A stretch of 64,000 nt of DNA. Origin: an uncultured virus (IMG/VR IMGVR_UViG_3300024505_000864). Its lineage: Duplodnaviria > Heunggongvirae > Uroviricota > Caudoviricetes. The position numbers and the translations under genes are program-made. The first letter of the stretch is position 1. Each line of letters begins with the position of its first letter. The notes under the pieces were generated by a model. It saw nothing but the letters and a program-made list of their open reading frames with translations. It had not been told where the DNA came from and ran no database searches. Positions 18,220-25,730 of this stretch are shown piece after piece. The DNA lies in IMG/VR virus record IMGVR_UViG_3300024505_000864; one strand, given 5' to 3'.

Positions 18220-18863
18220 TCTGGATTATTATTTCTTTGTATATCAATCCCTATTGCAATCGTAATTCTTTCTTTATCACTCTTTGATGCTCGAATGGAA
18301 TGATTTACTATGGCAGGAAATATTACTAAATCATCTTCTTCAACATCTATTGTAATATCATTCCACATCCAAAGATTATTTTCATTATTTCGATCAAATA
18401 ATTCTTTTTTTTTGGAATAATGTAAATCTAAAACTAATCCATAAGAAGATGGATTATGAAATACCGTTGAAGTATGCTCATTAGAATCAAATTTCAAATA
18501 ATGAACTCCAGCAAATACCAAAGGAAAATGGTTATGAGGAAACATACATTGTCCTTTGGTAGTTACCGTATAATTCTGTATATCAAAGTGCCAGTATATT
18601 TCATCAACAAATTCAAACTGTGTGATAAATTCTTTTACTGCAGAATGATATAATGGTATTAACTTAGAATAATCAATTTTCTTAAATTTTTCATTATTCC
18701 AGTCATTATATTCATGGTGCAAATTAGAACTAGAGTTCCATTCATTTCTTGATGGATCTATTGAATAATTATTAAGCATAGAAGAAATTAACTCTTCTTT
18801 ATTGAAATCTTGTGAATTTATTTTTGTTTTGTAGTAAGGAAATTTAAATAAAGAATTTAGCAT
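18195..18863 (-). CDS. 2OG-Fe(II) oxygenase-like protein
   Basis: HNH...GVHYLKF...EEDDLVIFP...H...RITIA. Confidence 0.8.
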   Translation of the reverse strand: MLNSLFKFPYYKTKINSQDFNKEELISSMLNNYSIDPSRNEWNSSSNLHHEYNDWNNEKFKKIDYSKLIPLYHSAVKEFITQFEFVDEIYWHFDIQNYTVTTKGQCMFPHNHFPLVFAGVHYLKFDSNEHTSTVFHNPSSYGLVLDLHYSKKKELFDRNNENNLWMWNDITIDVEEDDLVIFPAIVNHSIRASKSDKERITIAIGIDIQRNNNPEDSQETVH

Positions 18864-19013
18864 TTTAATCTTTTATATCCTCTTTCAAAAAGTTCATTAG
18901 ATCCATATTCTCTGATTCATTATATAAATGGATTAAAAATTCATAAAAAGACAAATTTTCAAATCTTTATAATGAATAATTTTAGTAATAGTAATTAACC
19001 GTATCTATACATT

Positions 19014-19255
19014 AAAAGGGGCATTGCACCCCTATGTAAGTTTTGGATTAGAAGGAAACTTATAACCCCCTCACTCATTTAAGGTCAAACCAATGCGGTC
19101 TGACGAGTGAATGCAACAATGTTGTTTGCGTTTGTTTTTTGTCCCGTCAACAGATAATACGTACATCCCAGTCGATTCTATTTTACCCCCATGTAGTGGA
19201 GGTAATCGGTACTGCCCCGATGTGTTGGAATATAGAGGTTTATCCTCTTGAACAC
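19014..19255 (-). ncRNA. ssrA: Circularly permuted (two-piece) tmRNA, tag ANNIVAFTRQTALV
   Basis: 3' acceptor strand TACCTCC-A (19204-19197) precedes 5' strand GGGGGTA (19190-19184); G3-U70 pair; tag frame 19129-19085; terminator 19014-19033. Confidence 0.9.
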
Positions 19256-19260
19256 TTTAT

Positions 19261-19289
19261 ATAGTAGCAAAGTATTTGATTTTTGTAAA
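19261..19289 (-). promoter_or_regulatory. sigma70-type promoter of tmRNA
   Basis: TTTACA-17 nt-TACTAT. Confidence 0.7.
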
Positions 19290-19290
19290 G

Positions 19291-19363
19291 TGGAAGCATC
19301 GAGTCTCGAACTCGAAACCTCTTGAATGCAAATCAAGTGCTCTGCCAATTGAGCTATGCCCCC
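19291..19363 (-). tRNA. tRNA-Ala(TGC)
   Basis: Cloverleaf, anticodon loop TT-TGC-AT. Confidence 0.95.
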
Positions 19364-19385
19364 TATAAGAAACTATTTAGTTTCA

Positions 19386-19466
19386 TGCTCAAGAGAGGAT
19401 TTGAACCTCCAAGTCTTGCGACGGCAGATTCTAAGTCTGCTGCGTATACCGTTCCGCCACTTGAGC
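19386..19466 (-). tRNA. tRNA-Leu(TAG)
   Basis: Cloverleaf with variable arm, CT-TAG-AA. Confidence 0.95.
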
Positions 19467-19499
19467 ATTTATTGATAATAAAACAATTGCTCTCAACTG

Positions 19500-20099
19500 T
19501 CAAATCTTTTCCCACAAAACATTAAGAGATTTGTCAAAAACCATTAGATAACGATGCTTTTTAGTTCTAGGTCTCCACTCACCTTCAATACCTTTTATAG
19601 ACCCTCTAGAATGTTTAATGTATGAACCATCATTCTTCTTAATCCAAAAGTCTTTTTTGGATTCTGTCATGCCATAGTATTGAAAATTGCAAGCTCTGTA
19701 TATAACTCCAGTGTGCTTACTAGAGTCAGCATAACTAAGAATAGCACGAACTGAGGCATCTTTTCTAAATCTCCGAATACAACGACTAACGAACCAAGAA
19801 GTAATATTATATTCTTGGTTTTGAATATCTGGATGAATACAAAGACGTGATAATTCGTAAATTCCTTGCTGTTGATTTCTTTCTAGTCCAAAAGCACCTA
19901 CGGCAATTTCTGGAACTGGGAGACCAGTAAAAATGCAAGCACCAACACACCTGATAGGGTCAGTGAATGATTTACTATATAATCCATAATTGAAACCTGA
20001 TTTAAAATCCTTGGATTCATCTTTTAGATAGTGATAGGTATAAAGAAGTTCTTTGATTTCTTCTTTACCTACTCTATCTATAAAAAAATCAGATTTCAT
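19500..20099 (-). CDS. Mom-like GNAT-fold DNA modification protein
   Basis: HYL...ELSRLC...SWFVSR...SYAD...HTGVIYRACNF. Confidence 0.8.
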   Translation of the reverse strand: MKSDFFIDRVGKEEIKELLYTYHYLKDESKDFKSGFNYGLYSKSFTDPIRCVGACIFTGLPVPEIAVGAFGLERNQQQGIYELSRLCIHPDIQNQEYNITSWFVSRCIRRFRKDASVRAILSYADSSKHTGVIYRACNFQYYGMTESKKDFWIKKNDGSYIKHSRGSIKGIEGEWRPRTKKHRYLMVFDKSLNVLWEKI

Positions 20100-20312
20100 T
20101 TAGGTATTTTTACTCACTTTGTTTGGATTCTAACATATATTCGACAGTATTTGCAACATCATTCATTGCATCACGAAGATTTGGACGTTGACCCGATTCT
20201 TGTTTTACAATAGGACGATGATCATCAGTAAGAGTCCATCTCCACTGATTCATTTCTTTACAGTACCAAAGATTAATTTTCATTTGATATTATTTGGAGT
20301 ATTATAACTCAG

Positions 20313-20386
20313 AGCCCCCGATAAGACTTGAACTTACGACCTGAGCTTTACAAAAACCCTGCTCTATCCAACTGAGCTACGGAGGC
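20313..20386 (-). tRNA. tRNA-Thr(TGT)
   Basis: Cloverleaf, TT-TGT-AA. Confidence 0.95.
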
Positions 20387-20390
20387 ATGA

Positions 20391-20870
20391 TTAAGAGTAT
20401 TTAGTAGCAATAGTAAACCGATGTTTATTACGAAATGAAGTTGCTCGATGTAATATATTTGCATCAAAACATACCATTCTATTTGGAATTGGTAAAATTC
20501 CAGTCATCTCATCCTCAATTACAAATTGTGTTTCTCCTCCATCATTAATATCCCATTCAAGATTTGAATAATATAAACAAGTGATTCCAGAATCTCCATC
20601 AGTATGAAAATAAGGATTTTCACCTGGAGAGAAACAATTAATATACATTCTATGTATTTCCAGATCTTTTACTTCTGGAACATATTGTCTAATTTTAGAA
20701 TCAAATAAGTTAAATATAAATTCTGTAGAATTTATTGGAGAAATCATTCCAGTGGGAGGTGTATTTTTTCTATCAGTTTCTCCATATTGATAGGAAGAAT
20801 TATGACAGTACTCTACTGTATTTTTAAAATCTTCTTCAGATAAGAAGTCATCTAAAATAATAATCATCAA
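20391..20870 (-). CDS. 2OG-Fe(II) oxygenase
   Basis: HTD...GGET...NRMVCFD...H...RFTIA. Confidence 0.85.
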   Translation of the reverse strand: MMIIILDDFLSEEDFKNTVEYCHNSSYQYGETDRKNTPPTGMISPINSTEFIFNLFDSKIRQYVPEVKDLEIHRMYINCFSPGENPYFHTDGDSGITCLYYSNLEWDINDGGETQFVIEDEMTGILPIPNRMVCFDANILHRATSFRNKHRFTIATKYS

Positions 20871-21142
20871 TCAACAGGTAATAATTCAGGATTAACTAAA
20901 TCTAATTCATACATGAGAGGATGACATTCTTCTACAGTTAGGTATACAGAGGCACGATATAATTCTTCATCACTATACCTATGACTTGATGATGCTTCTA
21001 AAACGATGTTTGGATCATTTTGCATAACATCTGGAAGTTCATCGAATGTATATGGCATATCTTGAATGAAGTACATTTTAACAATGAAATTTTCCTCAGT
21101 AGTATCAACCCACCTATAAGCAGTACTTAGAGTGTATTTCAT
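20867..21142 (-). CDS. Hypothetical protein
   Basis: ORF track. Confidence 0.7.
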   Translation of the reverse strand: MKYTLSTAYRWVDTTEENFIVKMYFIQDMPYTFDELPDVMQNDPNIVLEASSSHRYSDEELYRASVYLTVEECHPLMYELDLVNPELLPVD

Positions 21143-21150
21143 GTTACTGT

Positions 21151-21618
21151 TTAGTATTTCAAATATTTATTTTTTCCCCTATATGTTTCTGTTTGAGCAT
21201 GGCAGTTTGGGCATAAAATACGAAGATTTTCTAAACGATTATCCCGAGGATTTCCATTTATATGGTCTAATTCAATTGGTGTTAGTTTTCCTCTCCATTT
21301 TATTATACCACATTCTTCACATTTGTGTTCTTTTATTCCGTCTTTAATAAGACGATTTTTCAATTTATATGATTGATGATAAGAATTTTCAGTTAAGTAA
21401 TATTCAATTGGTTTTGTTGTATGCCTATGAGTTTTTCCTTTTAACCAACCTTTTCCAGTAAAATGAGAAGTATCAAGATTTAATTTTTTAATTTTTTCTT
21501 GTGCTACCTTATAATTTCCTCCTGCTTCTTTAAGTCCTATTTTTGAAAGAACTTGTCGAATACTTGTTGAGGTTTTTACTGCTTCAATAAATTCATCATT
21601 TGTATATCTTAAAGACAT
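21151..21618 (-). mobile_element. Free-standing HNH endonuclease
   Basis: CEECG...ELDHINGNPRDNRLENLRILCPNCH; upstream hairpin with CTAAATA in its loop. Confidence 0.9.
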
Positions 21619-21664
21619 ATATTTAAAAGGTAAACCTAATTTTATTTAGGAATTTACCTTTTAA

Positions 21665-21937
21665 TAGGAGTGGTGGGATTCGAACCCACCCTGGATGGAT
21701 TTTCTTACCACTACAACTTTCGTTGCCTCATAGAGTTTGTGGTCTGGACTATACCTTCACCATACCTTTCGGTTTAGGTGTTCCCCGTCTAGTCTCTACA
21801 CCTTCATCTTACGATGCTTGGCTCGGTATTGCCATTTTACAGGTTTCACCGAATTTGAGGAATTACACTCATAAGGTTTCCCAAATGAGGCTCAATTTTT
21901 CATAAGTCCACTGCCTCTTCCGCTGGGCTACACTCCC
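21665..21937 (-). tRNA. tRNA-Leu(TAA), exons 21937-21904 and 21703-21665
   Basis: Spliced anticodon arm GTGGA-CTT/AAAA-TCCAT; intact D and T arms. Confidence 0.9.
21704..21903 (-). mobile_element. Group I intron (cyanobacterial tRNA-Leu UAA type), 200 nt, no ORF
   Basis: P AATTCGGTGAA, Q AATACCGAGC, R GTAGAGACTAGA, S AAGGTATAGTCC; terminal G; inserted after U34. Confidence 0.9.
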
Positions 21938-21944
21938 ATAAAAA

Positions 21945-22151
21945 TCAACCGTTGTAGGTGATAGGATTATACTTGAGGTACTCGAAAAATGTCAACTTCA
22001 TTTCTTTGAGTGACATTCCACAGTGCTTTGCTGCCTCAGGTAGATTCATTTTTGATGTAAATAATCCTTCATTTGCTTCTCTTACATTCTCAGGAGTTGT
22101 TTTAACGGGAACTTCCTTGAGATTTTTAGAACTAATAGGAATAAAATTCAT
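21945..22151 (-). CDS. Small putative HTH protein
   Basis: MNLPEAAKHCGMSLKEMK. Confidence 0.6.
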   Translation of the reverse strand: MNFIPISSKNLKEVPVKTTPENVREANEGLFTSKMNLPEAAKHCGMSLKEMKLTFFEYLKYNPITYNG

Positions 22152-22175
22152 CTTTTATTTTTAATAATTTTTTAA

Positions 22176-22351
22176 TGAGTAGTGAGTGTCCACTACTCGG
22201 CCAGACACTTGGCCCCGAATGTTTCACTGCATTAGAGGGCAGTGAATGAGCAGGGTGAACAATCCCCTGACCCAAGAAAACTTAGGATTTAGTAAGTCGG
22301 ATATGATGATCCCGACTTGTATGAAAGATCCAGACATTTCTAGACCTTTCA
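22176..22351 (-). ncRNA. manA-like structured RNA
   Basis: Seven hairpins, complementary loops AGTGTC/GACACT, directly 3' of tRNA-Asn. Confidence 0.7.
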
Positions 22352-22352
22352 A

Positions 22353-22424
22353 CTCCCCCGGCAAGATTCGAACTTGCGACCCATTGATTAACAGTCAACT
22401 GCGCTACCGCTGCGCCACAGGGGA
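22353..22424 (-). tRNA. tRNA-Asn(GTT)
   Basis: Cloverleaf, CT-GTT-AA. Confidence 0.95.
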
Positions 22425-22445
22425 ATGTGAACCTTAAAGGTTCAG

Positions 22446-22517
22446 AGCGGGGTATCGGAATCGAACCGACGACATCTAACTTGGAAGGATAGCGTTCTAC
22501 CGCTGAACTAACCCCGC
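22446..22517 (-). tRNA. tRNA-Gly(TCC)
   Basis: Cloverleaf, CT-TCC-AA. Confidence 0.95.
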
Positions 22518-22554
22518 ATATTTAAGGTTGAAACTCTGTCTCAACCACCCTTAA

Positions 22555-22612
22555 ACTATAAGGCATAGTGCCTTGTTTGTCAAGAGTCTTATGCCACTCT
22601 TTAAAGTGGCAT
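22555..22612 (-). promoter_or_regulatory. sigma70 promoter with upstream dyad
   Basis: TTGACA-17-TATAGT; ATGCCACTT-TAAA-GAGTGGCAT 30 nt from the -10 box. Confidence 0.75.
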
Positions 22613-22613
22613 A

Positions 22614-22687
22614 TCGGAATAATAGGATTCGAACCTACGGCCCCTGCTTCCCAAAAGCAGTGCTCTACCAAACTGAGCTACATTCCG
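22614..22687 (-). tRNA. tRNA-Pro(TGG)
   Basis: Cloverleaf, TT-TGG-GA. Confidence 0.95.
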
Positions 22688-22763
22688 TGGTGGGAAATGT
22701 CGGATTCGAACCAACGACTTTCTGCGTGTAAAGCAGACACTCTAACCGCTGAGTTAATCTCCC
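22688..22763 (-). tRNA. tRNA-Val(TAC)
   Basis: Cloverleaf, TT-TAC-AC, encoded CCA. Confidence 0.95.
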
Positions 22764-22778
22764 ATTTGAGACCCCTTT

Positions 22779-22837
22779 AATATACCAGATCTCTGAGTCA
22801 TTGTCAAGGGGTCTCAGGACACTTTGAAAAGTGTCCT
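22779..22837 (-). promoter_or_regulatory. sigma70 promoter with perfect dyad
   Basis: TTGACA-17-TATATT; AGGACACTT-N4-AAGTGTCCT. Confidence 0.8.
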
Positions 22838-22849
22838 TATGTGTTTTGG

Positions 22850-23284
22850 TTACTCAGTAAAAGAACGAAGCATCCAAACAAATTTTCCATGTGCTTCATT
22901 TAAATCATCAAGAAGATTTACTGTTCCTCTTGATTTTTGATTTTCTGCTTCTTCAGCAGCATCATTAAACATATCAATCATTTTTTTGTGACTTTCAAGT
23001 AAGTCACGGATCATTTCCATCTCGGAAATGTTGGTCTTTGCTTCAGAGACTCCAGAAACTTCTAAAACTCTTGACAAAGAACTGATAGGTTTAATTCCTA
23101 AAAATCTCATGTGCTCTGATAATCGATCAATCTCTTCTTGAATTGATTCGTACTGTTCTCCAAACAAATCATGAATTTGTTTAAAGTCAGGTCCTACAAT
23201 ATGCCAATGATAGACCCATGTTTTTTGAAATAATAAAAAGAGTGATGCTTGAGTATCAGAAAGTAACTTATAGAGATTTTCCAT
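22850..23284 (-). CDS. dps: Dps / ferritin-like DNA protection protein
   Basis: HWHIVGPDFKQIHDLFGEQY...IDRLSEH...KFVWML; true start MENLY. Confidence 0.9.
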   Translation of the reverse strand: MENLYKLLSDTQASLFLLFQKTWVYHWHIVGPDFKQIHDLFGEQYESIQEEIDRLSEHMRFLGIKPISSLSRVLEVSGVSEAKTNISEMEMIRDLLESHKKMIDMFNDAAEEAENQKSRGTVNLLDDLNEAHGKFVWMLRSFTE

Positions 23285-23327
23285 ACAATTTTTGTGTGTA
23301 TGGTTATTTATGCTCCTTATGGAGCAA

Positions 23328-23413
23328 AGGAAAGTCAGGGATTCGAACCCTGGGAGGCTACAAACCTCAGTAGTTTTCAAGACTACCACCATCAACCACT
23401 CGGTCAACTTTCC
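23328..23413 (-). tRNA. tRNA-Ser(TGA)
   Basis: Cloverleaf with long variable arm, CT-TGA-AA. Confidence 0.95.
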
Positions 23414-23478
23414 AATATAACAATCATACTATATGTAGTATAGATTGTCAAGCGTTCTCTTAATTCAAGAGAACAAGG

Positions 23479-23550
23479 CACAGGATAGAGGACTTGAACC
23501 TCTACTAAAAGTTTTGGAGACTCTCGTGCTACCAATTACACCAATCCTGC
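23479..23550 (-). tRNA. tRNA-Trp(CCA)
   Basis: Cloverleaf, CT-CCA-AA. Confidence 0.9.
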
Positions 23551-23551
23551 T

Positions 23552-23626
23552 TGGTTCCAGAACTAGGATTCGAACCTAGACGTACACCTTCAAAGGGTGC
23601 TGACCTGCCAATTAGTCGATTCTGGA
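23552..23626 (-). tRNA. tRNA-Gln(TTG)
   Basis: Cloverleaf, CT-TTG-AA, encoded CCA. Confidence 0.95.
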
Positions 23627-23627
23627 T

Positions 23628-23704
23628 TGGAGTTCAGGGTGGGATTTGAACCCACGATAAGAAGTTTTGCAGACTTCCGCATTCGACCACTCTGCCACCT
23701 GAAC
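23628..23704 (-). tRNA. tRNA-Cys(GCA)
   Basis: Cloverleaf, CT-GCA-AA, encoded CCA. Confidence 0.95.
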
Positions 23705-23736
23705 ATTGAACTATCTGGAATTTCCAGATAGTTGAG

Positions 23737-23807
23737 AGCCCAATAACAGAATTGAACTGTTCTCTGCAGTTTACTAAACTGCTGCATCACCACAATGCTT
23801 ATCGGGC
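23737..23807 (-). tRNA. tRNA-Thr(AGT)
   Basis: GCAGT-TTAGTAA-ACTGC anticodon arm; paired acceptor, D and T stems. Confidence 0.85.
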
Positions 23808-23809
23808 GG

Positions 23810-23881
23810 GGTGCCGTATGGGAATTGAACCCATCTAAGTAGTTCCACAAACTACTGCCTTAACCACTAGGCTAACGACAC
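23810..23881 (-). tRNA. tRNA-His(GTG)
   Basis: Cloverleaf, TT-GTG-GA, C73. Confidence 0.9.
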
Positions 23882-23882
23882 A

Positions 23883-23954
23883 AGGCAGTGGGTAGAATTG
23901 AACTACCGACGAAGAGGGTATGAATCTCTTGTTCTACCACTGAACTACACTGCC
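23883..23954 (-). tRNA. tRNA-Met/Ile2(CAT), non-initiator
   Basis: TT-CAT-AC; lacks initiator GGG/CCC stem. Confidence 0.85.
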
Positions 23955-23958
23955 AAGG

Positions 23959-24045
23959 CAGAAAGGAAGGGATTCGAACCCTTGAGGGGATTTCTCCCCC
24001 GAAAGTTTAGCAAACTTTTGCCTTCAACCACTCGGCCACCTTTCT
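23959..24045 (-). tRNA. tRNA-Ser(GCT)
   Basis: Long variable arm, TT-GCT-AA. Confidence 0.95.
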
Positions 24046-24064
24046 AAATTTTCCCTTACGGGAA

Positions 24065-24138
24065 TTGGAATGGTCGGACTCGAACCGACGACCTCACGAT
24101 TATCAGTCGTGCTCTCTAACCAACTGAGATACATTCCA
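24065..24138 (-). tRNA. tRNA-Ile(GAT)
   Basis: Cloverleaf, CT-GAT-AA. Confidence 0.95.
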
Positions 24139-24139
24139 T

Positions 24140-24214
24140 TGGTAGTCTCGAAGGGATTTGAACCCTCGTTTTTGCTGTGAAAGAGCAACGTCCTAACCAT
24201 TAGACGACGAGACC
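24140..24214 (-). tRNA. tRNA-Glu(TTC)
   Basis: Cloverleaf, CT-TTC-AC, encoded CCA. Confidence 0.95.
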
Positions 24215-24217
24215 ATA

Positions 24218-24291
24218 CGACGATGAGGGGATTTGAACCCCCGATCTCCTGCGTGACAGGCAGGCGCTTTAAGCCACTAAGCTACACCGTC
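24218..24291 (-). tRNA. tRNA-Asp(GTC)
   Basis: Cloverleaf, CT-GTC-AC. Confidence 0.95.
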
Positions 24292-24295
24292 AAGG

Positions 24296-24377
24296 TGGGA
24301 GGAGCAGGATTCGAACCTGCGAAGGCAGAGCCGACGGTTTTACAGACCGTTTCCATTAACCACTCGGACATCCTCCC
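24296..24377 (-). tRNA. tRNA-Tyr(GTA)
   Basis: Variable arm, CT-GTA-AA. Confidence 0.95.
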
Positions 24378-24475
24378 AGATGGACTATGTGTGATATACC
24401 TCATAAGGATATAACAGGGACATAGCCTCTATCTTGCTACGGCATTCTTGTTTAATCGACAAGTGCAAGTAGCAA

Positions 24476-24547
24476 TGGGTCTGGTGGGACTCGAACCCAC
24501 AACCTTCACCTTAAAAGGGTGTTATTCTACCATTGAATTACAGACCC
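24476..24547 (-). tRNA. tRNA-Lys(TTT)
   Basis: Cloverleaf, CT-TTT-AA. Confidence 0.95.
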
Positions 24548-24561
24548 ATATAATGTGGTAA

Positions 24562-24600
24562 CTATTCAGTTGTCAAGGTTCTTGGGGTCTCGTTCCCCCA
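24562..24600 (-). promoter_or_regulatory. rrn-like boxB/boxA antitermination signal
   Basis: Hairpin TGGGG/CCCCA followed by GAACCTTGACAACTGAATAG. Confidence 0.6.
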
Positions 24601-24611
24601 CCGACTCAAGT

Positions 24612-24669
24612 AATATACCCTGGATTGGACCCCAGTGGAAAATGATACGACCAGTTGAACAAGTGGCAC
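24612..24669 (-). promoter_or_regulatory. Early promoter module heading the tRNA operon
   Basis: GTGCCACTT-GTTC-AACTGGTCG + 30 nt + TATATT. Confidence 0.7.
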
Positions 24670-24676
24670 AAAGCAT

Positions 24677-24712
24677 AAAAAAAGAGGGAGAACCTTTTGG
24701 ATTCTCCCTCTT
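24677..24712 (-). terminator. Intrinsic terminator (attenuator 3:4 stem)
   Basis: AAGAGGGAGAA...TTCTCCCTCTTTTTT. Confidence 0.85.
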
Positions 24713-24735
24713 GATTGCTTTTATGGTTTGTTACT

Positions 24736-24837
24736 TTAACTTTGACTTACCATATTCGCAACCAAGAGAGATTCACCCATAAACCAGCAGGTAATGGGAC
24801 TAATATCACTCTTTGGTTGTGTATGAAGGTTAGTCAT
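24736..24837 (-). CDS. Putative 33-aa attenuator leader peptide MTNLHTQPKSDISPITCWFMGESLLVANMVSQS
   Basis: Manual translation downstream of TATAAATA (24865-24858); overlaps mutually exclusive stems. Confidence 0.65.
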   Translation of the reverse strand: MTNLHTQPKSDISPITCWFMGESLLVANMVSQS

Positions 24838-24896
24838 TGTTTTTATGTTGTATGGTTTATTTATACAAGTTTTTTTAAAAAATGTCAATATTAGGA

Positions 24897-25451
24897 TTAA
24901 ATTCTTTCAATAACAGTAAGTCCGTTATTATTAGTTCTATGAATTTTGAACTGCCATACTCCAGGATTCTCAATCATATAATGAATAATTGCAGGGAGGA
25001 GACCGTTGCTTCCTTTTTTCCCCTGAAATTCTTCAGATACGGTTCCATATGTTTGAGTATCATGGAATGCAATATACTTTCTTGCTTTTGGTGCATGTAA
25101 TCTAAGTTCTTGAATTAATTGATCATAGCAGTGCCATGTATCAATAAAAAGTAAATCAGTTTCTTCGATTTCTATGTCGAGTACGTTAGACTCTACATAA
25201 CTGACATCTTTTCCTGAATTTTTAGCATGTTCAAATAAACCATTTACACCAGAATCTAAAGATAAATCATAAGCACGTAGAATAACGTCAGAATTTAGAA
25301 ATGCCCGAGTACTTATTCCAGTTCGTGTGCCCATTTCTGTAACATGAGCACACTCATCTGCAAGTTCTTTTAAAACTTCTAAATGTTCATTGATATCTGA
25401 ATCATTTCTGATAGCAGATTCATATTCATTTTTTAAAAGGTCAGTTGTCAT
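24897..25451 (-). CDS. Class I SAM-dependent methyltransferase
   Basis: EMGTRTGIST...DLLFIDTWH...IAFHDT. Confidence 0.8.
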   Translation of the reverse strand: MTTDLLKNEYESAIRNDSDINEHLEVLKELADECAHVTEMGTRTGISTRAFLNSDVILRAYDLSLDSGVNGLFEHAKNSGKDVSYVESNVLDIEIEETDLLFIDTWHCYDQLIQELRLHAPKARKYIAFHDTQTYGTVSEEFQGKKGSNGLLPAIIHYMIENPGVWQFKIHRTNNNGLTVIERI

Positions 25452-25484
25452 TTTTATCTCAATATCTTATAGAATATGTATAAG

Positions 25485-25730
25485 CTATGGAGTAGTGCAA
25501 ATTCCTGAGGTTTCTGAGAATGGTTCAGGTTCTGGAGGAACTGGTTCGGGTTCAGGTGGAACTGGTTCTGGAACTGGTTCAGGTGGAACTGGTTCTGGAA
25601 TTGGTTCAGGTGGTGGGGGGAGTGGAATTGGTGGTTCTGGATAAAGTTTGTAACACAAACACCAATGTCCATCTTCATACTTAAGGTATGGCATATGATA
25701 TGCAAAGTAAGATCTATTTGAATGATTCAT
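25485..25730 (-). CDS. Pro/Glu-rich small protein
   Basis: GGAGG SD; PEPVPPEP repeats. Confidence 0.7.
   Translation of the reverse strand: MNHSNRSYFAYHMPYLKYEDGHWCLCYKLYPEPPIPLPPPPEPIPEPVPPEPVPEPVPPEPEPVPPEPEPFSETSGICTTP

What the first reader, a model, noticed from the sequence alone, without database searches (positions are those of the whole stretch)
24677..24865. Leader-peptide attenuator that appears to sense tRNA shortage and switch on the phage tRNA operon
Seen in sequence (minus strand): late promoter TATAAATA (24865-24858), then an unannotated 33-codon ORF (24837-24736), then an intrinsic terminator, then the tRNA array. The RNA has three mutually exclusive pairings. 1:2 pairs CAACCAAAGAG (24819-24809) with CUCUCUUGGUUG. 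The 2:3 antiterminator pairs UCUCUCUUGGUUGC (24771-24758) with GCAAUCAAGAGGGA (24718-24705): 14 contiguous bp, two of them G-U. 3:4 is the terminator. Established: this is the architecture of trp/his-type ribosome-mediated attenuators, whose leaders repeat one amino acid. Here the leader does the opposite and uses 18 different amino acids. Its first 22 codons include cognate codons for 11 of the 12 tRNAs in the first downstream block (Lys, Asp, Glu, Ile, Ser-GCT via AGT, Met, His, Thr-AGT via ACT, Cys, Gln, Trp; only Tyr is absent). Inference: loss of any of these tRNAs, for example through host anticodon nucleases or late tRNA decay, stalls the ribosome, frees segment 2 and lets late transcription read into the tRNA operon. 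I know of no described equivalent.
Basis: partly seen in the sequence, partly recalled or inferred. Interest (0 to 1): 0.92.

Follow-up and report, generated by a model that had tools for sequence, protein, structure and literature searches.

The report
Leader-peptide attenuator before phage tRNA genes
Just upstream of this cyanophage's main block of tRNA genes lies a conserved switch made of a short translated reading frame, two competing RNA hairpins and a terminator; the short frame uses almost every amino acid once, as if it tests the cell's tRNA supply before letting transcription run into the tRNA genes.

Summary
The interpretation passed every comparative test its author named.

- **Conservation.** The same layout (TATAAATA promoter, ORF of 32-37 codons, terminator) occurs in S-PM2, in S-CREM1, in 45 of 47 IMG/VR loci found by a spacer motif, and in 76 of 80 loci found by a terminator motif. 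It is nearly always followed by a tRNA-Lys-led array (71 of 74 loci with enough downstream DNA).
- **ORF.** It stays open in 9 of 9 subtypes. In 47 type-C variants the third codon position varies about twice as much as the others, so the frame is translated.
- **2:3 antiterminator.** It forms in 12 of 12 representatives (-24 to -31 kcal/mol). It sequesters 6-14 nt of the terminator's 5' arm, and 17 of 20 pairs show compensatory changes.
- **Leader content.** Of 65 distinct leaders, 59 carry at least 18 different amino acids and 9 carry all 20 (null mean 14.1). Leader codons cover 261 of 274 downstream tRNAs.
- **Read-through.** In S-PM2, contigs from four RNA libraries bridge the terminator into tRNA-Lys.

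Regulation itself was not tested. The 1:2 pairing is type-specific and absent in type D. The spacer may hold promoters of its own. I read this as a new variant of ribosome-mediated attenuation: phage-borne, controlling tRNA genes, with a maximally diverse leader.

The parts
24883..24888 (-). TTGACA, a sigma-70-type -35-like hexamer 17 nt upstream of TATAAA
   Evidence: Read. A TTGAC[TA] at this position is seen in many relatives but not all (read from the sequences).
24858..24865 (-). TATAAATA, a T4-type late-promoter box
   Evidence: TATA[AT]ATA lies 26-30 nt before the ATG in 45 of 47 loci. NATAAATA is named as the S-PM2 late promoter in PMC2984593 (passage). In S-PM2, two RNA-library contigs begin 6-7 nt after the box (a weak hint only).
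24736..24837 (-). Leader ORF, 33 codons plus TAA
   Evidence: Open in 9 of 9 subtypes, with P(open) of 0.09-0.33 each under shuffling. Third-position bias in 47 type-C variants. 18 different amino acids in the window's copy; up to 20 in relatives.
24809..24819 (-). Segment 1, the 5' strand of the 1:2 anti-antiterminator
   Evidence: Paired with segment 2 in the MFE. In per-sequence folds, most of segment 2 is paired upstream in types A, A2, C, C2, C3, B and F. No cross-type consensus was recovered.
24776..24798 (-). Apical hairpin between segments 1 and 2
   Evidence: MFE.
24758..24771 (-). Segment 2, which pairs with either segment 1 or segment 3
24722..24754 (-). Upper stem of the 2:3 hairpin (UAUGGU 24754-24749 with ACCAUA 24727-24722); the stop codon lies in its apical loop
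   Evidence: All 6 pairs show a compensatory change in A7.
24705..24718 (-). Segment 3, the 3' strand of the antiterminator, overlapping the terminator's 5' arm
   Evidence: 11 of the 13 nt of the terminator's 5' arm are sequestered in the window's copy.
24677..24712 (-). Intrinsic terminator: 13-pair stem, 5-nt loop, T run
   Evidence: Hairpin energy -20.2 kcal/mol.
24549..24676 (-). Conserved spacer: a hairpin just after the T run, a TATATT box, and a GGUGGGGGAACGAGACCCC hairpin (19-mer at 24604-24586)
   Evidence: The function of the boxes is unknown; they may be promoters or RNA structure.
23477..24548 (-). First tRNA block: Lys, Tyr, Asp, Glu, Ile, Ser(GCT), Met, His, Thr(AGT), Cys, Gln, Trp

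Best explanation
This is a ribosome-mediated transcription attenuator placed between a late-type (TATAAATA) promoter and the phage's tRNA-Lys-led tRNA array.

**Proposed mechanism**
1. Transcription starts a few bases after TATAAATA, and a 33-codon leader is translated.
2. The last third of the leader (segment 2) can pair with the first third (1:2) or with the sequence just upstream of, and inside, the terminator's 5' arm (2:3).
3. If the ribosome runs through the leader without delay, it covers segment 2 while the polymerase makes segments 3 and 4. The terminator then forms and a leader RNA of about 175 nt is released.
4. If nothing translates, 1:2 forms and the terminator forms again.
5. If the ribosome is held up in roughly the first half of the leader, segment 1 is masked and segment 2 is free. 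The 2:3 hairpin is more stable than the terminator and is complete before segment 4 exists, so it forms first. The polymerase then reads on through the spacer into the tRNA genes.

**What the leader would sense.** It carries about one codon for nearly every amino acid, and for about 95% of the tRNAs encoded downstream. It would therefore report slow decoding at any of many codons. That would make it a meter of tRNA supply that feeds back on the phage's own tRNA output.

**Shown:** the parts, their conservation, covariation of 2:3, translation-type constraint on the ORF, extreme amino-acid diversity, codon coverage, and RNA contigs bridging the terminator in S-PM2.

**Inferred:** that stalling controls read-through, where stalling must occur, and that tRNA shortage is the natural signal.
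For: **Architecture in the window**. See the observation check.

**Conservation.**
- S-PM2 and S-CREM1 have the same layout upstream of a syntenic Lys-Tyr-Asp-Glu array.
- 45 of 47 loci found by the spacer 19-mer have it. 46 of 47 have a + strand tRNA downstream within the flank, tRNA-Lys first in 45.
- 76 of 80 loci found by a terminator motif have it, and only 17 of these carry the 19-mer. Of 74 with more than 450 nt downstream, 71 have a + strand tRNA within 450 nt, and 67 start with tRNA-Lys(ttt).

**ORF.**
- Open in 9 of 9 subtypes, while the other frames carry 0-5 stops.
- Entropy by codon position is 7.4 / 8.1 / 14.8 in 47 type-C ORFs.

**2:3 hairpin.**
- 12 of 12 representatives fold into it at -24.2 to -31.4 kcal/mol (z -2.9 to -7.6), against terminators of -13.4 to -23.0.
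- It sequesters 6-14 nt of the terminator's 5' arm.
- On A6 (types A and C, 19 distinct rows), 94.9% of cells pair against 86.1 +/- 1.0 in shuffles (0 of 500) and 39-60% when slid; 7 of 20 pairs are compensatory.
- On A7 (A2, C, B, D, E, F; 22 distinct rows), 88.8% pair against 77.2 +/- 1.0 (0 of 500); 17 of 20 pairs are compensatory against 7.7 +/- 1.5 (0 of 500).

**Ribosome-mask folding.** P(terminator) falls from 0.94 to 0.22 with the A site at codons 10-11 in the window, and from 0.97 to 0.17 at codon 8 in L055.

**Amino-acid diversity.** The 65 distinct peptides carry 20 amino acids (9), 19 (33), 18 (17), 17 (3), 16 (2) or 15 (1). The null is 14.1 +/- 2.3, with P(>=19) = 0.003 and no case of 20 in 50,000 draws.

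**Codon coverage.**
- 261 of 274 downstream tRNAs have a cognate codon in their own leader.
- Random ORF windows cover about 60%. Composition-matched open shuffles cover about 70% (per-locus P 0.003-0.22). The true frame exceeds both other frames in 15 of 16 loci and ties one in the 16th.
- In 37 further leader/array pairs, 258 of 259 tRNA amino acids occur in the leader.

**RNA contigs.** Contigs at 1247-1849, 1246-1591, 1270-1593 and 1343-1556 of L089 bridge the S-PM2 terminator (about 1395-1428) into tRNA-Lys, which starts at 1547.
Against: - No experiment shows regulation.
- At equilibrium the terminator stays the favoured structure in 8 of 10 representatives wherever the ribosome is placed, and also when segment 1 is deleted. 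The model therefore needs kinetic control.
- The 1:2 pairing is type-specific. RNAalifold finds no common 1:2 helix. In type D, 0-9 of 20 segment-2 bases pair upstream. In type E, segment 2 pairs with the start-codon region instead.
- Diversity is not universal: S-PM2-type leaders have 15-16 amino acids, S-CREM1 has 17, and type E has 17-18.
- Against composition-matched shuffles the diversity signal is weaker: mean about 16.2, P(20) of 0.003-0.007, P(19) of 0.02-0.13.
- The share of leader codons readable by the array's tRNAs is not raised (P 0.002-0.46). Only the evenness is unusual.
- Fine tracking of arrays is weak. Permuting leaders among loci gives P = 0.015, and related loci are counted repeatedly. 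The window's own leader lacks Tyr although tRNA-Tyr follows.
- Two of 47 loci (L061, L063) lack the leader altogether, yet keep a terminator, the spacer and the array.
- The spacer has conserved TGGTATATT / TGGTATTCT boxes that could be promoters.
- Conserved amino acids in type C (for example D14, W18, H19, G22, P24) could also point to a function of the peptide itself.
- The CM-made alignments lean towards the modelled structure.
- The RNA contigs come from one study. Contigs cannot show levels, and DNA carry-over cannot be excluded.
Confidence: 0.55

Rival explanations
1. The attenuator is real, but it senses general translation status (ribosome availability, transcription-translation coupling, amino-acid starvation, or translation inhibitors) rather than tRNA supply. 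On this view the diverse leader merely avoids dependence on any one amino acid.
For: It rests on the same structural evidence. The share of leader codons readable by the array's tRNAs is not raised. Codon-level tracking is weak. Type D lacks 1:2, which gives a simple two-state switch: ribosome on segment 2 means termination, no ribosome there means read-through. From recall, and from the search listing (PMC4191407), ribosome-stalling attenuators that answer to translation inhibitors are known.
Against: The regulated genes are tRNAs, which is the output that fits a tRNA-supply signal. Near-complete coverage of the downstream tRNAs (261 of 274; 258 of 259 at amino-acid level) and leaders carrying all 20 amino acids go beyond what avoiding bias would need.
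Confidence: 0.2
2. The promoter, ORF and terminator form a self-contained small late gene (micro-protein) or small RNA. The terminator only insulates it. The tRNA array is driven by promoters in the spacer, and the 2:3 complementarity serves RNA stability or processing.
For: The spacer has conserved extended -10-like boxes (TGGTATATT, TGGTATTCT), each followed by a hairpin. One search scores TTTCCA-18-TATATT at 24641-24612 as 9 of 12. L061 and L063 keep terminator, spacer and array without a leader. Later tRNA blocks in the window have near-consensus promoters of their own. Type-C amino acids are conserved through synonymous change.
Against: - The 2:3 helix overlaps the terminator's 5' arm in every type and covaries, which is the signature of a switch.
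- Peptide sequence differs greatly between types while ORF length and stop position hold.
- RNA contigs run through the terminator into tRNA-Lys.
- The element is tied to tRNA arrays in 71 of 74 loci ascertained independently.
Confidence: 0.15
3. The nascent leader peptide is itself the sensor. A conserved Asp/Cys/Arg/Trp/His core would arrest the ribosome in response to a small molecule, as TnaC does with tryptophan (recalled).
For: Amino-acid identity in the core (L13 D14 C15 R16 W18 H19 I20 E21 G22 P24 L25 F26) is kept through synonymous changes in type C. A Trp is present in types A, B, C, D and F.
Against: The core is not conserved across types: type A has ITCWFMGES, type D has SDWNSCGHIACES, and type E has no Trp or Cys. 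A stall at codons 18-26 would cover segment 2 and favour termination.
Confidence: 0.05

Closest known systems
trp/his/thr/ilv-type leader-peptide transcription attenuators of bacteria (mechanism recalled; PMC1183508 seen in the search listing)
   Same: A short translated leader, three overlapping pairings (1:2, 2:3, 3:4), and an intrinsic terminator ahead of the regulated genes. The position of the ribosome decides which pairing forms.
   Different: - It lies in a phage, after a T4-type late promoter.
- It controls tRNA genes, not biosynthetic enzymes.
- The leader has no run of one regulatory codon but near-maximal diversity (18-20 amino acids in 32-37 codons).
- The stop codon lies in the apical loop of 2:3, not between segments 1 and 2.
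- The 1:2 pairing is missing in one type.
T-box riboswitches (recalled)
   Same: A transcription attenuator that reports tRNA status through an antiterminator/terminator choice.
   Different: T-boxes bind an uncharged tRNA directly, need no ORF, and precede aminoacyl-tRNA synthetase or amino-acid genes. Here an ORF is conserved, and no Rfam family matched the leader (24677-24865) above its gathering score in the E<=1 scan of 18500-25500.
Ribosome-stalling attenuators that respond to translation inhibitors, for example bmrCD (PMC4191407, search listing only)
   Same: Stalling at more than one kind of codon in a leader frees an antiterminator.
   Different: Those respond to antibiotics and control resistance genes. 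No link to tRNA genes or to pan-amino-acid leaders is known to me.
Attenuator-derived sRNA rnTrpL and leader peptide peTrpL of Sinorhizobium (abstract starts seen: 10.1101/606483, PMC7298713)
   Same: The terminated leader RNA and the leader peptide can act in trans. The conserved type-C peptide core leaves room for that here.
   Different: No target is known here, and the peptide is not conserved across types.
Phage tRNA arrays as codon supplements or as a counter to tRNA-targeting defences (PMC3152331 and PMC10264068, search listings and abstract starts only)
   Same: They supply the rationale for a phage to adjust its tRNA output to tRNA shortage.
   Different: As far as I saw them, those works concern the tRNAs themselves, not a cis-acting control element upstream of the array.

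Membership tests
Ribosome-mediated (leader-peptide) transcription attenuator | Short ORF with a start codon close to the transcription start, conserved as an open frame | tested here: met
   ATG lies 26-30 nt after the start of TATA[AT]ATA in 45 of 47 loci. The ORF is found in 76 of 80 loci and is open in 9 of 9 subtypes. Third-position bias of 7.4 / 8.1 / 14.8.
Ribosome-mediated (leader-peptide) transcription attenuator | Intrinsic terminator between the leader and the regulated genes | tested here: met
   Stem 24712-24682 plus T run. Terminator hairpins of -13.4 to -23.0 kcal/mol in all 32 distinct leaders.
Ribosome-mediated (leader-peptide) transcription attenuator | Antiterminator (2:3) mutually exclusive with the terminator, and conserved | tested here: met
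   12 of 12 representatives. 6-14 nt of the terminator's 5' arm are sequestered. 17 of 20 pairs are compensatory, with 0 of 500 shuffles reaching that. The alignment was fitted to the model.
Ribosome-mediated (leader-peptide) transcription attenuator | Anti-antiterminator (1:2) that sequesters segment 2 when the leader is not translated | tested here: inconclusive
   Seen in per-sequence folds of 13 of 17 representatives with partner codons 1-14. Type E pairs segment 2 with the start region. In type D, 0-9 of 20 bases pair. No common helix by RNAalifold.
Ribosome-mediated (leader-peptide) transcription attenuator | Run of regulatory codons for the amino acid that the operon supplies | tested here: not met
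   The opposite is found: 59 of 65 distinct leaders have 18-20 different amino acids, and the window's leader has 18 of 20.
Ribosome-mediated (leader-peptide) transcription attenuator | Read-through depends on translation of the leader | not testable with these tools
   Only the existence of RNA-library contigs bridging the terminator in S-PM2 could be shown.
T-box riboswitch | Specifier loop and T-box antiterminator recognised by the Rfam model | tested here: not met
   The scan of 18500-25500 at E<=1 lists no T-box. Within 24677-24865 only sub-threshold sraL (22.7 bits against a gathering score of 39) and STnc320 (25.3 against 50) appear.

The most novel reading that the evidence does not exclude
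The leader is a built-in tRNA-supply meter. It carries about one codon for nearly every amino acid, so shortage of any one tRNA stalls the ribosome early in the leader and opens late transcription into the phage's own tRNA array. Such shortage could come from the mismatch between phage and host codon usage, from decay of host tRNA after host shut-off, or from cleavage by a host anticodon nuclease. As the phage tRNAs accumulate, the leader is read faster and the array shuts itself down again. That would be the first product-feedback attenuator for tRNA genes, and a sensor-coupled counter-defence.
Probability: 0.3. Interest if true: 0.92.

Novelty: new variant of a known kind. Interest (0 to 1): 0.85.

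Why it matters
Why phages carry tRNA arrays is still debated (codon supplement or counter-defence), and how the arrays are regulated has hardly been described.

A conserved translated switch in front of the array would show that at least one clade of cyanomyoviruses adjusts tRNA output to how well translation is running.

A leader that samples nearly all amino acids would also be a new design principle for attenuators: it would sense any slow codon instead of one amino acid.

The idea is directly testable in a cultured system, S-PM2 on Synechococcus WH7803 (host as written in the phage record). About 125 metagenomic variants serve as natural mutants.

Tried and rejected
- **Synteny through the upstream gene (24897-25451).** 45 relatives were found in IMG/VR. 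None but the window's own contig carries the leader by blastn. In several, the gene is followed directly by tRNA-Ile(tat). This route led nowhere.
- **Phage-collection searches.** tblastn with that protein found no match. blastn with the window region and with a type-C leader found only S-PM2, plus S-CREM1 by its tRNA-Lys.
- **Equilibrium folding with segment 1 removed.**
- **RNAalifold on MAFFT alignments.** It recovered only 5 pairs of 2:3 and no 1:2 helix. The alignments are not structural, so I turned to covariance models.
- **Alignment A5.** Discarded because it mixed in reverse-strand matches.
- **Alignment A7.** The 7 type-A rows, including the window, had to be left out because their reverse-strand matches outscored type D. 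They are covered by A6.
- **Hairpin just after the T run.** 6 pairs, 1 compensatory, consensus energy -2 kcal/mol. Too weak to use as evidence.
- **TTGACA at 24575.** Rejected as the array's promoter: in relatives the same box lies 12-14 nt from the tRNA's first base, which leaves no room for a -10 box and a start site.
- **RNA contigs.** No run covers 1187-1227 of L089 (the bins on either side are only partly covered), and two contigs stop near 1591-1593. No conclusion is drawn from uncovered parts or contig ends.
- **Rfam.** No family covers the leader or the spacer.
- **Earlier findings of this scan.** Nothing on record.
- **Scripts.** timed out and was rerun with fewer shuffles. One search stopped with an error after printing the type-C table, because my filter caught no type-A ORFs.
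Full report
**What is in the window.** All elements lie on the minus strand.
- The 184-codon gene at 25451-24897 is followed by TTGACA (24888-24883), a 17-nt spacer and TATAAATA (24865-24858).
- An ATG at 24837 opens a 33-codon frame that ends at TAA 24738-24736.
- A 13-pair hairpin (24712-24682) with a T run follows.
- After a 128-nt spacer, tRNA-Lys begins at 24548 and heads a block of 12 tRNAs down to 23477.
- The leader RNA folds far better than shuffles (z -6.5). Its MFE holds 1:2 plus the terminator.
- Rfam has no family for it.

**Relatives.**
- The window matches an IMG/VR contig at 100% over the queried region.
- Its tRNA order (Lys-Tyr-Asp-Glu-Ile-Ser-Met-His...) is that of Synechococcus phages S-PM2 and S-CREM1 (Kyanoviridae).
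- In both phages the DNA before tRNA-Lys has the same layout: TATAAATA or TATATATA, a 34- or 32-codon ORF, then a terminator.
- In S-PM2 this frame is not annotated. In S-CREM1 it is a hypothetical protein.
- A 19-base motif from the spacer found 47 IMG/VR loci. 45 have the box, an ATG 26-30 nt later, an ORF of 32-37 codons and a terminator. 46 have a + strand tRNA downstream within the flank, tRNA-Lys first in 45.
- That sample was chosen by a motif next to tRNA-Lys, so I repeated the search with a terminator motif of types C, D and E. 80 loci were read out of at least 120 matches, and only 17 carry the 19-mer.
- In this second set, 76 of 80 have promoter and ORF. Of 74 with more than 450 nt downstream, 71 have a + strand tRNA within 450 nt, and 67 start with tRNA-Lys(ttt).
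- The link between the element and the tRNA array is therefore not an artefact of how the loci were found.
- Two loci of the first set (L061, L063) have no leader. There a protein gene and its own terminator precede the same spacer and array.

**The reading frame.**
- The leaders fall into about seven sequence types whose peptides are barely alignable.
- The frame is nevertheless open in 9 of 9 subtypes. Dinucleotide shuffles stay open with probability 0.09-0.33 each, and the other two frames carry stops.
- In small samples the variable sites showed no codon-position bias.
- In 47 distinct type-C ORFs the summed entropy is 7.4, 8.1 and 14.8 for positions 1, 2 and 3. Many codons change only synonymously, for example Gly22 with four codons and Leu13, Arg16, Pro24 and Ala27.
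- That pattern is what translation under selection leaves, and RNA structure alone does not explain it.
- Codons 3-7 and 12 are hypervariable.

**The alternative structures.**
- With segment 4 left out, as it is before the polymerase has made it, 12 of 12 representatives fold into one long hairpin. It joins the last third of the ORF to the sequence upstream of and inside the terminator's 5' arm.
- Its energy is -24.2 to -31.4 kcal/mol (z -2.9 to -7.6), against -13.4 to -23.0 for the terminators. The stop codon sits in its apical part, and 6-14 nt of the terminator arm are sequestered.
- Sequence-based alignments were not structural enough for RNAalifold. I therefore built covariance models on the window-type helix and let them align the other types.
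- On types A and C (19 distinct rows), 94.9% of cells pair, against 86.1% in shuffles (0 of 500) and 39-60% when the partner is slid. 7 of 20 pairs carry compensatory changes.
- On A2, C, B, D, E and F (22 distinct rows; type A was left out because its reverse-strand echoes outscored type D), 88.8% pair against 77.2%. 17 of 20 pairs carry compensatory changes against 7.7 +/- 1.5 (0 of 500).
- These alignments are fitted to the model, which favours the structure. The slid controls and the per-sequence folds point the same way.
- The 1:2 pairing is less secure. In per-sequence folds most of segment 2 pairs with codons 1-14 in types A, A2, C, C2, C3, B and F. It pairs with the start-codon region in type E and hardly at all in type D. 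No common helix is found across types.
- At equilibrium a ribosome mask lowers the probability of the terminator strongly in only two of ten representatives: the window (0.94 to 0.22 at codons 10-11) and L055 (0.97 to 0.17 at codon 8). The switch, if real, must therefore be kinetic, as recalled for the classical attenuators.

**What the leader encodes.**
- The relatives make the point much stronger. Among 65 distinct leader peptides of 32-37 residues, 9 contain all 20 amino acids, 33 contain 19 and 17 contain 18.
- Windows of this phage's long ORFs give 14.1 +/- 2.3, with P(>=19) = 0.003 and no case of 20 in 50,000 draws.
- Against open dinucleotide shuffles of the leaders themselves the mean is about 16.2 and P(20) is 0.003-0.007. 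Part of the effect is composition.
- Over 22 distinct leader/array pairs, 261 of 274 downstream tRNAs have a cognate codon in their own leader. The figure is about 60% for random ORF windows and about 70% for open shuffles. The true frame exceeds both other frames in 15 of 16 loci and ties one in the 16th.
- In 37 further pairs, 258 of 259 tRNA amino acids occur in the leader.

**Limits of the codon evidence.**
- The share of leader codons that the array can read is not raised, so evenness rather than preference is what stands out.
- Swapping leaders among loci lowers coverage only slightly (254.6 +/- 2.8, P = 0.015, relatedness not corrected).
- S-PM2-type, S-CREM1 and type E leaders have only 15-18 amino acids.
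- Val is missing in 42 of 65 leaders.

**Transcripts.**
- Four RNA libraries of one study hold the S-PM2 stretch as contigs.
- Laid on L089, contigs at 1247-1849, 1246-1591, 1270-1593 and 1343-1556 each bridge the terminator (about 1395-1428) and reach tRNA-Lys, which starts at 1547.
- Two of them begin 6-7 nt after TATAAATA (1233-1240).
- Contigs cannot give levels or true ends, and DNA carry-over cannot be excluded. This shows only that a continuous molecule through the terminator exists in RNA libraries, and it is a weak hint at the start site.

**The promoter and the spacer.**
- NATAAATA is the late-promoter motif reported for S-PM2. Overlapping early and late promoters are thought to give a middle mode of transcription there (PMC2984593, passages).
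- The leader promoter of the window and of many relatives has both a TTGAC[AT] at -35 and TATAAATA.
- The spacer is modular. It has a weak hairpin just after the T run. One or two units follow, each made of TGGTATATT or TGGTATTCT followed by a GGUGG...CCACC hairpin. Then CACCTTGACAA leads up to the tRNA.
- The window and S-PM2 have the short one-unit form.
- The boxes look like extended -10 elements and could give the array a promoter of its own. I could not decide this.

**Mechanism and rivals.**
- Best reading (0.55): a ribosome-mediated attenuator in which unhindered translation, or in most types no translation, gives termination. A ribosome delayed in the first half of the leader lets 2:3 form and the polymerase read into the tRNA genes. 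The near-pan-amino-acid leader makes the switch answer to slow decoding at many different codons, that is, to tRNA supply.
- Rival 1 (0.2): the same switch sensing general translation status.
- Rival 2 (0.15): a self-contained small gene or sRNA with an insulating terminator, and an array driven from the spacer.
- Rival 3 (0.05): a nascent-peptide sensor.

**Comparison and novelty.**
- It works like trp/his-type attenuators and meets four of their structural criteria. It fails the one that defines their specificity, a run of regulatory codons, and it controls tRNA genes in a phage.
- It is not a T-box.
- Four full-text searches found no description of such an element: covering cyanophage/tRNA/attenuation/leader peptide, S-PM2/tRNA/terminator, phage tRNA genes/attenuation/antiterminator, and S-PM2/ncRNA/late promoter.
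- The S-CREM1 genome paper has no occurrence of 'attenuat', 'leader' or 'terminator'. A survey of structured RNAs in viruses has none of 'attenuat' or 'leader peptide'. Supplements were not read.
- I file it as a new variant of a known kind.

Noticed in passing
window 19018-19270 (-); also L056 2878-3019: A cyanobacterial-type permuted tmRNA gene lies at the far end of the phage's tRNA region (72.4 bits against a gathering score of 70; tmRNA_permuted 52.4 against 47). A relative's locus has one too (74.7 bits, cut by the locus end).
   Followed up: no
window 21727-21913 (-): Group I intron match (61.8 bits against a gathering score of 50) between tRNA blocks. The gene it interrupts was not examined.
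   Followed up: no
window 23451-23423, 22807-22779, 22583-22555 (-): Three near-consensus sigma-70-type promoters (11 of 12 matches, TTGACA-17-TATGAT/TATATT/TAGT-like) lie directly upstream of the later tRNA blocks (Ser-TGA; Val-Pro; Gly-Asn). Only the first block is preceded by the leader and terminator.
   Followed up: partly
window 24549-24676; L050-L096 spacers: The spacer between terminator and tRNA-Lys comes in a short form (118-130 nt; window, S-PM2) and a long form (about 208-222 nt). The long form has a second unit of 'TGGTATTCT box plus GGUGGUUGAGAGACCACC hairpin'. These could be tandem promoters with 5' hairpins or a structured RNA; undecided.
   Followed up: partly
L091 (spacer of 700 nt), L061 and L083 (about 300 nt): Some relatives have insertions between the spacer units and tRNA-Lys. 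The largest, in L091, is long enough to hold a gene.
   Followed up: no
L053, L056, L067 and others, about 50 nt upstream of the leader promoter: In about 20 loci a tRNA-Arg(tct) ends just before the promoter, so the leader lies inside the tRNA region. The stretch between -35 and -10 there is an A/T inverted repeat (GACTTTTTTCCAAAAAAGTC).
   Followed up: no
L083 598-808; L056 1101-1137: A manA RNA motif (100.9 bits) and an abiF RNA motif (40.3 bits against a gathering score of 37) lie among the tRNAs upstream of the leader in relatives.
   Followed up: no
window 24897-25451 (-): The 184-codon gene upstream of the leader has 45 relatives in IMG/VR (39-74% identity apart from the window's own contig) but none in the isolate-phage collection. 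In several relatives a tRNA-Ile(tat) follows it directly. No family search was run.
   Followed up: partly
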